A program made the position numbers and the translations under genes. A DNA stretch of 64,000 nt from the human T2T-CHM13v2.0 reference genome, Homo sapiens, in NCBI GenBank assembly GCA_009914755.4, contig CP086569.2, positions 53,120,001-53,184,000 of the forward strand. Direction: 5' to 3'. Of this stretch, positions 6,022-9,725 are shown piece by piece (the first letter of the stretch is position 1; every line of letters starts with the position of its first letter). The notes below the pieces were generated by a model. It made no database searches and had not been told where the DNA came from. It saw only the letters and a program-made list of their open reading frames with translations.

Positions 6022-6315
6022 TTTTTTTTTAGACAGAGTCTTGTCCTGTTGCACAGGGTGGAGTACAATGGCGCCATCTTTGCTCACTGCAACATCTGCC
6101 TCACGGGTCCAAGCGATTGTCCTCCCTCAGCCTCCCAGGTAGCTGGGACTACACCACACTGGGACTACACCAGCTGCCACCATGCCTAGCTAATTTTTTG
6201 GATTTTTAGTAGTGACAGCGCTTCACTGTATTGGCCAGGATGGTCTTGATCTCTTCACCTTGTGATCCCCTTGCCTTGGCCTCCAAATTTGCTGGGATTA
6301 CAGGCCTGAGCCAAG
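6022..6315 (-). mobile_element. Alu fragment copy 3, amplified with the DYZ2 unit.
   Basis: It is offset by 2420 bp from copy 2 and has the same boundaries. Confidence 0.9.
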
Positions 6316-9300
6316 ATCCATATTTTTTAAATGAAAAAAAATTTCAAAGGTACTCTGCTTGGTACAATAATCAAATGTATAAAGTGAGGAATAAAACATA
6401 ACCATGAAACCTACTTATAACTGCATATGGAAAATACAGAGGATAATTTTTTAAATACCATATTTTGAAAGCCTTAACTAGTAATTTGAAGAGTTGGCAT
6501 TTGAAAGGCCAGTATGAATATTCCTTCAGAGCAGCAACACAGGTTCCCCATGAGAAAAAGCAAACTCAGGGAAAATGAAACCACAAAGGTTCAATCTCTT
6601 CTGACCTTTGAAAGACACAGCACAGACAGTGGTCCTTAGGACGAAGAGCAGGAGACCCCTAATTCCGTCACCATGGCGATAGGGCATAAACATTGCTGGG
6701 TGAGGGCACAATCCACATTGTGAGGTCCAACTGCTGCCAGGAAGACAGGAGTGCTTTTACATAGACCGAAAGGTCATTGAAGGCTCAGAGTTTTGTTTCA
6801 AGAACTGAATCCCAAGCCCACACGTTATTAGGCTGCGCTTCTTAAAACAAGTTATGAGATGGGAAAAAGGGCACCCACAAACATACGTATACATTATGTA
6901 TATAATAATATACAGTATCATATATATAATATATATAACCTGTATATAATATTGTTTTACATCCTGCATCTTATATTATATATATTGTGTAAAATATAAT
7001 AATTGATAATATATAAGTTTTATATTTATACAATATGACATATAGTATATATTATAATTTATGACATATATAATATATGTTATATATAATATATAGAATA
7101 TATTATACGGTTAATATACGTATTAAATATAAATTATACATTATATATATTATATATAATATATCTGTTATATATAATACCCATTATACATAATATATAT
7201 ATTATGTCTATGTTTTATATAGTATAAACCAACATATAATAATATATAATTGTATATATAAAATGTGACATATAATATATATTATATTTTATGACATATG
7301 TAACATGTATTATATATTATATATATTACGTTGTATGTATAATACCTATATTAAATATATATTATATGACGATGTTATTAATTACATGTCACATATGTTA
7401 TATATTATATATTTTACATGGAATATACCGGTTACATATAATATATACTATGTTACCTATAATGTATAATTTATTACATGTAATATAATGAATGTCATAT
7501 ATTATATATAATTTATAATATACAATATGTGGAATGTGATATATATAACATATATGATATATGATATAAAGTATATGATATATAACATACAATATATGAT
7601 ACGTAATATATATGGTATACAATATATATTTTATGATATGTATTCTATATGTTTTATATTCTGTTATATATAACTATTTGAAATTATATATAACTGTATA
7701 ATATTTTATGTAAATATGTAATATAATATATATAACTATATAATATATTATATATAACTATATTTTATGTTATATATACTTTTATAACATAATTTACATA
7801 AAATATAATAATATAAAATATATTATATTATTTCATATTACATAATATATATTCAATATCACCCAATATAAGTAACATACATACTATTAAAATATAGATT
7901 ATATTATGTTATATTAAATATCATATATATCATGTATCATATATTCTATAATATATATTATGCATTATATAATATGCATGTTGTCTATTATGTGATATAT
8001 ATAACTATATATATAATTGTATTATTATACATATAACTATATAAACATGTAATTCTATATATTTTCATTTATAATATATAGAATTATATAATCATAATTA
8101 TTTATATTCTATAAAAAATTATATCATTATATAAATTATAATGAGATGGGAAATAGGGCACACACAAACATACGTATACATTATGTATATAATAATATAC
8201 AGTATCATATATATAACATATATAACCTATGTATAATATTGTTTTACATCCTGCATCTTATATTATATATATTGTATATAATATAATAATTGATAATATA
8301 TAAGTTTTATATTTATACAATATGACATTTAATATATATTATATTTTATAACATATATAATATATATTATATATCATATATAATATATTATATGGTTAAT
8401 ATACGTATTAAATATAAAATATATATTATAAGTATTATATATAGTGTACCTAAGTTATATATAATATACCCTATATATAATATATATATTATGTCTATGT
8501 TATATATAGTATAAAACAACATATAATAATATATAATTTTATATATAAAATATGACATATAATATATATTATATTTTATGACCTGTATAATTTATATTAT
8601 ATATTATATACAATACGTTGTATGTATAATATATATATTAAATATATATTAAATGACTATGTTATTAATTATATGTCATATATGTTATATATTATATATT
8701 TTACATAGAATATACTGGTTATATATAATATATACTATGTTACATATAATGTATAATTTATTACATATAATATAATGTATGTCATATATTATATATAATT
8801 TATAATATACAATATGTGGAATATGATATATATAACATATAATATATGATATATGATATACAATATATGATATATAATATACAATATATGATACATTATA
8901 TATATGGTATACAATATATATTTTATGATATGTATTATATATGTTTTATATTCTGTTATATATAAGTATGTGAAATAATATATAACTGTATAATATTTTA
9001 TGTAAATATGTAATATAATATATATAACTATGAAATATATTATATATAACTATAAATTATGTCTTATATAGTTGTATTACACTTTACATAAAATATCATA
9101 ATATAATATATATTATATTATTTTATATTACATAATATATATTATATATCACATAATATAAGTTACATACATAATATTAAAATATAGATTATATTATGAT
9201 GTATTAAATATCATATATATCATGTATCATATATTGTATAATATATATTATACATTTTATATTATATATGTTGTCTATTATGTGATATATATAATTATAT

Positions 9301-9725
9301 ATATAATTACATTATTATACATATAACTACATAAAGATGTAATTCCATATGTTTTCATTTACAGTATATATAATTATATAATCATATATATTTATTTATA
9401 TTCTAGAAAAAATTATATCTTTATATAAATAATAATATATAAAAATTATTATATGTACTAAAATATATATATTATATATCATATATGATATAGTATATTT
9501 GTTATATATCATATTACATATAACTATATATTATGTTATCTATAATAATATATTTTCATATATAAGATGTATAATATGTATTATATATTATAAATGTTAT
9601 GTAATATATATAGTATACATAAGATGACACAGGATAAATATTATATACTATGACATATAAAATATATGAGGTTATATGTTACATATAAGGCATAGCACAT
9701 AACATGCAATATTTATGATATATAA
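6022..9725. repeat. Expanded DYZ2-like unit (3704 bp): Alu, spacer, a truncated AT-rich segment (~6879-8142) and a second full AT-rich segment (~8143-9725) with no intervening Alu or spacer.
   Basis: At ~8142/8143 the AT-rich sequence 'ataaattataat' joins directly to 'gagatgggaaatagggcac...acatacgtatacattatgtatataataatatacagtatcat'. That is the normal spacer-to-AT-rich junction seen at ~2019-2060 and ~4437-4480. The next Alu poly-T does not appear until 9726. Confidence 0.8.

What the first reader, a model, noticed from the sequence alone, without database searches (positions are those of the whole stretch)
6022..9725. DYZ2 unit variant with two AT-rich segments and no intervening Alu or spacer
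Unit spacing is 2418, 2420, then 3704 bp. At ~8142 an AT-rich segment, truncated about 300 bp early, is fused directly to the start of another AT-rich segment. The fusion uses the sequence that normally follows the spacer, 'gagatggg...acatacgtatac'.

This is an unequal-exchange or deletion product that removed one Alu plus spacer, about 0.85 kb, and ~0.3 kb of AT-rich sequence. It is a candidate structural marker for this sub-array.
Basis: seen in the sequence. Interest (0 to 1): 0.5.

Follow-up and report, generated by a model that had tools for sequence, protein, structure and literature searches.

The report
Fused 3.7-kb DYZ2 satellite unit
One repeat unit near the edge of a human Y-chromosome DYZ2 (HSat1B) satellite array is a fusion of two neighbouring units that lost 1.1 kb between them; it is real in the sequence but is an ordinary kind of satellite length variant.

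Summary
Window 1-13,850 holds DYZ2/HSat1B-type units, each made of an Alu-derived part, an HSATI 'spacer' and an AT-rich part. A DYZ1-type pentamer satellite with a ~3.55-kb period follows. Unit starts are at 1184, 3602, 6022, 9726 and 12115, giving spacings of 2418, 2420, 3704 and 2389 bp. The 3704-bp unit is reference 1-2128 joined at 8142|8143 to reference 833-2418. There is no Alu or spacer between the two AT-rich segments.

The net change is a dimer minus 1,122 bp (290 bp AT-rich + 832 bp Alu/HSATI). The parental sequences share only 2 bp (AT) at the junction, which points to a non-homologous join rather than homologous unequal crossing-over. The two AT-rich segments belong to different unit lineages. 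The left one groups with the homogeneous array interior (96-98% identity). The right one groups with the diverged edge units (29 private variants shared with the next unit, 1 with the left segment). This rejects an in-place duplication and supports fusion of two distinct units.

Hallast et al. report DYZ2 unit lengths of 1,275-3,719 bp and more diverged units at array ends, so this is a known kind of variation. Read support, copy number and population frequency could not be tested. Interest is low.

The parts
1184..6021 (-). Two canonical DYZ2/HSat1B units, u1 (1184-3601, 2418 bp) and u2 (3602-6021, 2420 bp). The Alu-derived part is on the minus strand.
   Evidence: 97.9% identical to each other; public consensus-like contigs are 99.6% (u1) and 98.5% (u2) identical over the AT-rich part
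6022..6313 (-). Alu-derived part of the variant unit. It is the only Alu-derived part in the 3704-bp unit.
   Evidence: matches AluY positions 13-290 on the minus strand at 78.2% identity
6314..6855 (.). HSATI-type GC-richer 'spacer' of the variant unit
   Evidence: Alu+spacer is 99.6% identical to u2
6856..8142 (.). First AT-rich segment (u3a), equal to ref 835-2128. It is truncated 290 bp before the normal end and belongs to the array-interior lineage.
   Evidence: 96-98% identical to u0, u1 and u2; 140 interior states against 8 u4 states
8141..8144 (.). Breakpoint 8142|8143. The 2-bp AT (8141-8142) is the only microhomology shared by the two parental sequences.
   Evidence: three-way comparison with the parental positions in u1, u2, u4 and u5
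8143..8177 (.). Retained ~35-bp tail of the HSATI part (GAGATGGGAAATAGGGCACACACAAACATACGTAT), a small GC-containing island between the two AT-rich tracts. It carries the GGGAAATAGGG form seen in the edge units.
   Evidence: the ACATACG motif at the HSATI/AT intersection is described in Hallast et al.
8143..9725 (.). Second, full-length AT-rich module (u3b), equal to ref 833-2418. It is a diverged, edge-lineage unit.
   Evidence: about 92% identical to interior units and 92.9% to the best public contig; 29 private variants shared with u4
9726..13847 (-). Two diverged edge units, u4 (9726-12114, 2389 bp) and u5 (12115-13847). u5 is cut off at ref 1736 by the satellite boundary.
   Evidence: AT-rich parts are 85-88% identical to interior units; u4 and u5 share 26 private variants
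13848..13900 (.). DYZ2 -> DYZ1 (HSat1B -> HSat3) array boundary
   Evidence: independently reproduced by metagenome contig L033, which matches window 12722-14563 at 99.67%
13901..64000 (+). GGAAT-type pentamer satellite with ~3.55-kb higher-order period (DYZ1-like)
   Evidence: nearest-repeat distances 3549/3514/3559 bp; 65.6 GGAAT per kb and no ATTCC

Best explanation
The 3704-bp unit is a real fusion unit at the periphery of a Yq12 DYZ2 (HSat1B) array.

Two adjacent but already differentiated units were joined by a non-homologous event: end-joining of a break, or a replication template switch. The left parent was an interior-type unit, broken at reference position 2128 in its AT-rich part. 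The right parent was an edge-type unit, broken at position 833, about 35 bp before the end of its HSATI part. The join removed 1,122 bp: 290 bp of AT-rich sequence, the Alu-derived part and most of the HSATI part.

The sequence has no coding or regulatory role. The unit is a neutral structural scar.

It sits exactly where the homogenised interior of the array (96-98% identity) gives way to diverged edge units (92%, then 88%).
- Shown: the anatomy, the 2-bp microhomology, and the different lineages of the two halves.
- Inferred: the joining mechanism, the authenticity of the assembly at this point, and any causal link between the junction and the limit of homogenisation.
For: **Structure**
- Two collinear diagonals meet at 8142|8143. 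Base-level comparison shows only AT shared by the parents.
- There are five Alu-derived parts in the DYZ2 stretch and none inside 6314-9725.

**Lineage**
- Identity matrix: u0, u1, u2 and u3a are 96-98% identical to each other. u3b is about 92% identical to them and 87-88% to u4/u5.
- u3b is diverged along its whole length.
- Private shared variants: u3b-u4 29, u3a-u3b 1.
- At sites separating interior units from u4, u3b carries the u4 state at 34 of 151 sites before ref 2128 and 6 of 37 after it, with no break at 2128. u3a carries it at 8 of 150 (p=8e-6 and p=0.0012).
- Differences to u1 over the same reference interval: 48/1285 for u3a against 106/1290 for u3b, p=1.7e-6.

**Context**
- The array boundary 5.7 kb downstream is reproduced at 99.67% by an independent contig.
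- Hallast et al. report DYZ2 units of 1,275-3,719 bp and more diverged units at array ends.
- Rhie et al. report small deletions and expansions within HSat1B sub-arrays.
Against: - No independent sequence covers the 8142 junction. The junction 26-mer has 0 exact hits in metagenome contigs. All ~72 DYZ2 copies recovered from public contaminant contigs carry the normal spacer flank.
- Those contigs are mostly collapsed consensus copies, so this absence says little about a low-copy variant.
- Assembly correctness at 8142 rests on inference only.
- The direction and number of events cannot be proven from one haplotype. For example, an older junction could have been followed by re-homogenisation of everything to its left.
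- Microhomology of 2 bp is expected fairly often by chance in sequence that is more than 85% AT, so it does not discriminate between end-joining and template switching.
Confidence: 0.75

Rival explanations
1. Intra-unit tandem duplication, or insertion, of a 1.29-kb AT-rich block (ref 833-2128) within a single unit. On this reading the tail 9436-9725 belongs with the left half.
For: The structure is arithmetically equivalent: 2418 + 1296 minus small indels gives 3704. Hallast et al. attribute DYZ2 length variation mainly to expansion or contraction of the AT-rich part. The last 138 bp of u3b carry only interior-type states, 18 of 18.
Against: - The two copies are only 92.0% identical and share 1 private variant. 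u3b shares 29 with u4.
- u4-type states continue beyond ref 2128 into the supposed original tail: 6 of 19 sites in ref 2129-2280, against 8 of 150 in u3a, p=0.0012.
- The share of u4 states does not change at ref 2128 (p=0.50).
Confidence: 0.08
2. Homologous unequal crossing-over (non-allelic homologous recombination) between misaligned units, using internal repeats of the AT-rich region.
For: Unequal sister-chromatid exchange is the accepted driver of DYZ1/DYZ2 dynamics. The AT-rich part is internally repetitive at about 70-75% identity.
Against: The right breakpoint lies in unique, GC-containing HSATI sequence (...AAAACAAGTTAT|GAGATGGG...). This has no similarity to the left breakpoint context (...AAATTATAAT|ATATAAAAATT...) beyond 2 bp. 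A register shift of 1296 or 1122 bp does not correspond to any strong internal repeat diagonal.
Confidence: 0.07
3. Assembly artefact: a mis-join or collapse in a long satellite array.
For: Yq12 is among the hardest regions to assemble, and curators report graph errors in heterochromatic repeats. No independent sequence with the junction was found.
Against: - Collapses arise between near-identical copies. Here the right side of the junction is a distinctive unit, 8% from any other, with 44 private differences in 1261 compared positions.
- It is followed by two more distinctive units and a unique array boundary within 5.7 kb. A single HiFi read would span that distance.
- The boundary itself is independently reproduced.
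- A collapse would also not normally delete a non-integral 1,122 bp with a clean 2-bp junction.
Confidence: 0.08

Closest known systems
DYZ2 / HSat1B repeat-unit length variants catalogued in complete Y assemblies (Hallast et al. 2023, bioRxiv 10.1101/2022.12.01.518658, supplement)
   Same: Same satellite and same tripartite unit (Alu ~290 bp, HSATI ~566 bp, AT-rich ~1.4 kb). The published length range is 1,275-3,719 bp, with 93.7% of units at 2,420 bp and 1.4% outside 2-3 kb. A 3,704-bp unit falls inside the published range, near its maximum. Peripheral units are more diverged in both cases.
   Different: [quoted passage not shown] This instance is a fusion of two AT-rich modules of different lineage, with loss of a whole Alu + HSATI block and a defined non-homologous junction. 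I found no description of that architecture in the text I read.
Small deletions and expansions inside HSat1B sub-arrays of T2T-Y (Rhie et al. 2023, Extended Data Fig. 8d legend; bioRxiv 10.1101/2022.12.01.518724)
   Same: Local structural change within a DYZ2 array on Yq12, interpreted as a product of exchange or deletion.
   Different: Those events are described at the scale of whole units or blocks, seen in 2000-mer dot plots of near-identical arrays. This one is sub-unit, out of register, and lies in diverged edge sequence.
Hybrid or rearranged units at the diverged flanks of other satellite arrays, such as alpha-satellite higher-order-repeat structural variants (my own knowledge, not tested here)
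   Same: Array interiors are homogenised by unequal exchange, while the edges accumulate divergence and irregular units.
   Different: A different satellite family. Here the unit is a composite with an Alu-derived part, and the junction is non-homologous rather than a monomer-register shift.

Membership tests
DYZ2 / HSat1B satellite | Tandem unit of ~2.4 kb (consensus 2,420 bp) | tested here: met
   Spacings are 2418, 2420 and 2389 bp; k-mer distances 2420/2418; consensus length from Hallast et al.
DYZ2 / HSat1B satellite | Tripartite unit: ~290-bp Alu-derived part ~20% diverged from AluY, a GC-richer HSATI part, and a part that is more than 85% AT | tested here: met
GC is 0.09-0.18 in the AT-rich part and 0.35-0.52 in the Alu/HSATI part. 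Descriptions.
DYZ2 / HSat1B satellite | ACATACG motif at the HSATI / AT-rich intersection | tested here: met
   ...CACAAACATACGTATAC is present in u1-u3 and at the variant junction; the motif is described
DYZ2 / HSat1B satellite | Alternates with DYZ1 (HSat3, ~3.5-kb unit of pentamer repeats) on Yq12 | tested here: met
   The boundary lies at ~13,850-13,900, followed by 50 kb of GGAAT satellite with a 3549/3514/3559-bp period. The chromosomal location itself is not testable with these tools.
DYZ2 / HSat1B satellite | Near-identity to human DYZ2 copies from independent sources | tested here: met
   Contaminant contigs in metagenomes and bacterial assemblies are 99.6% identical to u1 over the AT-rich part. 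Such contamination is reported by Rhie et al..
Product of homologous unequal crossing-over (NAHR) | Breakpoints lie in a stretch of sequence shared by the two misaligned parents | tested here: not met
   Only a 2-bp AT is shared; the flanks are unrelated
Tandem duplication within one unit | The two copies are each other's closest relatives and share private variants | tested here: not met
   u3a-u3b: 92.0% identity and 1 shared private variant. u3b-u4: 29 shared private variants.
AT-rich simple-repeat expansion (the usual cause of DYZ2 length variation) | The extra length consists of added simple-repeat copies inside one AT-rich part | tested here: not met
   The extra 1.29 kb is collinear with ref 833-2128 at ~92% identity and begins with the non-simple 35-bp HSATI tail
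Fixed or recurrent structural marker of a DYZ2 sub-array | The same junction is present in other Y assemblies, in reads, or at other array ends | not testable with these tools
   There are 0 hits for the junction in metagenome contigs. The collections hold mostly collapsed consensus DYZ2 copies. No Y assemblies were available.

The most novel reading that the evidence does not exclude
The fused unit is not a one-off scar. It would be a recurrent feature carried at many DYZ2->DYZ1 array ends, copied along with the multi-block duplications of Yq12. Its structural heterology would act as the physical stop for in-register unequal exchange, setting the limit of homogenisation and explaining why units distal to it diverge. 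The evidence does not exclude this: the divergence step coincides exactly with the junction, and the nearby boundary sequence appears in an independent contig with 6 differences, which would fit paralogous copies.
Probability: 0.1. Interest if true: 0.35.

Novelty: new member of a known kind. Interest (0 to 1): 0.13.

Why it matters
There is little biological consequence. The sequence is non-coding heterochromatin, and length-variant DYZ2 units are already catalogued.

Its modest value is practical and descriptive:
- A unique 60-bp junction, together with distinctive edge units, gives an anchor for checking assemblies and for tracing the history of one DYZ2 array across Y haplogroups.
- It is a worked example showing that some 'AT-rich length variation' in DYZ2 is really a non-homologous fusion of two units, not simple-repeat expansion.
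- It shows base-level coincidence between a structural breakpoint and the edge of the homogenised array interior.

Tried and rejected
1. **Exact search for the junction 26-mer in metagenome contigs.** There were 0 hits. The calibration search with the 21-mer shared by normal and variant junctions gave 58 metagenome and 12 bacterial-assembly stretches and 0 viral ones. Every true DYZ2 copy had the normal spacer flank. This is uninformative for a low-copy variant, because these contigs are mostly collapsed consensus copies.
2. **Unit spacing in the longer contaminant contigs.** All spacings were 2.3-2.5 kb and none was 3.7 kb. Only about 20 intervals were available, several from noisy long-read contigs.
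3. **Protein-based look-ups (Logan and other assemblies).** These were abandoned because no ORF of 30 aa or more with a start codon spans the junction.
4. **Hairpin or cruciform potential as a cause of breakage.** The parental breakpoint contexts fold no better than shuffles, with z from +0.15 to -0.82. The junction context itself has z=-3.0, from short local hairpins. I do not interpret this, because it is one of five tests on a sequence of mixed composition.
5. **Rfam scan.** It found only sub-threshold mir-1268 matches inside the Alu-derived parts (31-35 bits against a gathering score of 83), which is an Alu-related signal and not a gene.
6. **Duplication/insertion and homologous-exchange models.** Both were considered and disfavoured.
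7. **Molecular-clock dating of the 8% divergence.** This was rejected as unreliable in slippage- and conversion-prone AT-rich satellite.

Full report
**What the window is.** The first ~13.85 kb has alternating GC-richer stretches (0.35-0.52 GC) and extremely AT-rich stretches (0.09-0.18 GC) with a ~2.4-kb period. The remaining 50 kb is a GGAAT-type satellite.

The pentamer satellite has nearest-repeat distances of 3549, 3514 and 3559 bp.

These features match the published descriptions of DYZ2/HSat1B and DYZ1/HSat3 on Yq12:
- a ~2.4-kb tripartite unit with a ~290-bp Alu about 20% diverged from AluY;
- an HSATI part of ~566 bp;
- an AT-rich part, with ACATACG at the HSATI/AT intersection;
- a 2,420-bp consensus;
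- alternation with ~3.5-kb DYZ1 arrays.

Contaminant human contigs recovered from metagenomes and bacterial assemblies are 99.6% identical to unit u1. The window is therefore the distal 5.5 units of a human DYZ2 array plus the start of the neighbouring DYZ1 array.

**Checking the observation.** BLAST of unit 1184-3601 against the first 14.5 kb gives clean diagonals:

| Reference | Window | Identity |
|---|---|---|
| 1-2418 | 3602-6021 | 97.9% |
| 1-2128 | 6022-8142 | 96.3% |
| 833-2418 | 8141-9725 | 91.8% |
| 1-2418 | 9726-12114 | 88.4% |
| 1-1736 | 12115-13847 | 90.4% |

Background self-similarity of the AT-rich part is about 70% identity and at most 141 bits, against 2202-3485 bits for the two diagonals. 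The spacing is 2418, 2420 and 3704 bp, as reported.

At base level the join is ...TATAAATTATAAT|GAGATGGGAAATAGGGCACACACAAACATACGTATAC..., between 8142 and 8143. No Alu-derived sequence lies between 6313 and 9726. The junction 26-mer is unique in the window, with none expected by chance. Relative to a dimer, 290 bp of AT-rich sequence and 832 bp of Alu + HSATI are missing, 1,122 bp in all.

**Anatomy of the junction.** The left parental context in normal units is ...AAATTATAAT|ATATAAAAATTATAAT.... The right parental context is ...CTTAAAACAAGTTAT|GAGATGGG.... The two share only the dinucleotide AT at the join, and the right breakpoint lies in unique, GC-containing HSATI sequence.

So this is not an exchange within shared sequence. 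It is a non-homologous join, by end-joining or a replication template switch, and I cannot tell which. The last ~35 bp of the HSATI part (8143-8177) are retained as a small island between the two AT-rich tracts. Hairpin potential of the parental breakpoint contexts is no different from shuffled sequence (z from +0.15 to -0.82), so nothing suggests a structure-induced break.

**Deletion or duplication?** The structure can be written either way: as a dimer minus 1,122 bp, or as a monomer plus a 1,296-bp internal duplication or insertion. Lineage analysis separates the two.

- *Pairwise identity of the AT-rich parts.* u0, u1, u2 and u3a (the left segment) are 96-98% identical to each other. u3b (the right segment) is about 92% identical to all of them and 87-88% to u4/u5. 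u4 and u5 are 85-87% identical to the interior units and 89% to each other.
- *Private variants shared by exactly two units.* u3b-u4 share 29, u1-u2 share 12, and u3a-u3b share 1.
- *Sites that separate interior units from u4.* u3b carries the u4 state at 34 of 151 sites before ref 2128 and 6 of 37 after it, with no change at 2128 (p=0.50). u3a carries it at 8 of 150 (p=8e-6). In ref 2129-2280, the supposed 'original tail' under a duplication model, u3b still has 6 u4 states among 19 sites (6 u4, 12 interior, 1 other; p=0.0012 against u3a).

The two AT-rich segments therefore come from two different units. This supports the deletion/fusion reading and rejects an in-place duplication.

**Position in the array.** Divergence from the interior type rises stepwise toward the DYZ1 boundary. 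Identity to the consensus-like public contigs is 99.6% (u1), 98.5% (u2), 96.7% (u3a), 92.9% (u3b), 88.4% (u4) and 87.6% (u5).

The step from u3a to u3b falls exactly at the breakpoint: 48/1285 against 106/1290 differences to u1 over the same reference interval, p=1.7e-6.

This matches the published rule that DYZ2 units near array ends are more diverged, because expansion and contraction homogenise the middle. It cannot be decided from one haplotype whether the junction merely lies at that limit or helps to set it, for instance because a structural heterology stops in-register exchange.

**Independent support.**
- The junction 26-mer has no exact match in the metagenome collection.
- A 21-mer common to normal and variant junctions recovered 58 metagenome and 12 bacterial-assembly stretches. 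Two of these, L002 and L055, are chance matches outside DYZ2.
- All ~72 true DYZ2 occurrences have the normal spacer flank.
- These contigs are mostly collapsed copies of abundant types, so the absence is weak evidence.
- One contig, L033 (PKQM01000722.1, 1841 bp), matches window 12722-14563 at 99.67% and spans the DYZ2->DYZ1 boundary. The array end 5.7 kb from the junction is therefore reproducible.

The junction lies in distinctive sequence, since u3b is 8% from anything else, and within one long-read length of that unique boundary. An assembly collapse is therefore unlikely, but this is inference, not a test.

**Comparison with what is known.** Hallast et al. measured 30,656 DYZ2 units in seven complete Yq12 assemblies:
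- lengths of 1,275-3,719 bp;
- 93.7% of units exactly 2,420 bp;
- 98.6% within 2,000-2,999 bp;

A 3,704-bp unit is thus in the rare tail but within the published range. Rhie et al. describe small deletions and expansions within HSat1B sub-arrays and evolution by unequal exchange.

What this analysis adds is the architecture of one such long unit. It is a non-homologous fusion of two modules of different lineage, with loss of an entire Alu + HSATI block, and not a simple-repeat expansion. It is a new instance of a known kind of satellite variation.

**Verdict.**
- The interpretation as a deletion-type fusion is supported.
- The homologous unequal-exchange alternative is disfavoured.
- The marker status is untested.
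- Interest is low (0.13).

The most novel reading still open is that this fused unit recurs at many array ends and acts as the stop for homogenisation. I give it about 10%. A k-mer search of the junction in complete Y assemblies would settle it at once.

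Noticed in passing
window 13901-64000: The DYZ1-like pentamer satellite shows the main 3549/3514/3559-bp spacings and also a well-populated 3889-bp class (2817 k-mer pairs). This suggests one or more DYZ1 units about 340 bp longer than usual.
   Followed up: no
loci L003-L057 (metagenome contigs), compared with window 2016, 4434, 6854, 8143, 10558, 12947: Public DYZ2 copies fall into two types at the HSATI/AT junction. Type A (TAGGCTG...GGGAAAAAGGG) is 99.6% identical to u1. Type T (TATGCTG...GGGAAATAGGG) has an AT-rich part only about 89% identical to u1 and about 91% to u3b/u4/u5. 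L025 and L043 show an A unit followed 2420 bp later by a T unit. The window holds no close relative of the abundant T type.
   Followed up: partly
L033 (PKQM01000722.1) versus window 12722-14563: An independent 1841-bp metagenome contig reproduces the DYZ2->DYZ1 boundary with 5 mismatches and 1 gap (99.67%). It was assembled from contaminating human DNA and is not quite identical, so this boundary may exist in several paralogous copies on the Y.
   Followed up: partly
L063 5897-6920 (NZ_HF570958.1, Nostocoides japonicum T1-X7, 5.16-Mb scaffold): About 1 kb of human DYZ2 (97.7% identical to window units) is scaffolded inside a bacterial chromosome-scale scaffold, between ~70% GC sequence. The 8-kb stretch also contains 500 N. 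This is human contamination of the kind Rhie et al. reported. Eleven other bacterial assemblies hold short DYZ2 contigs.
   Followed up: partly
window 9588-9725: The last ~138 bp of the variant unit (ref 2281-2418) carry only interior-type states (18 of 18), although the rest of u3b has 16-23% u4-type states. This could be a short conversion tract, or simply u4-private divergence in that stretch.
   Followed up: no
window 1288-1354, 3706-3772, 6126-6192, 9830-9896, 12219-12285 (minus strand): There are sub-threshold Rfam mir-1268 matches (31-35 bits; gathering score 83) in every Alu-derived part. They reflect the Alu origin of that family and are not microRNA genes.
   Followed up: yes
window 2134-2569 and 4551-4989: The AT-rich part contains an internal ~230-bp tandem duplication (1.9 copies, 76-78% match) at the same place in each canonical unit, so the 'simple repeat' has higher-order internal structure.
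   Followed up: no
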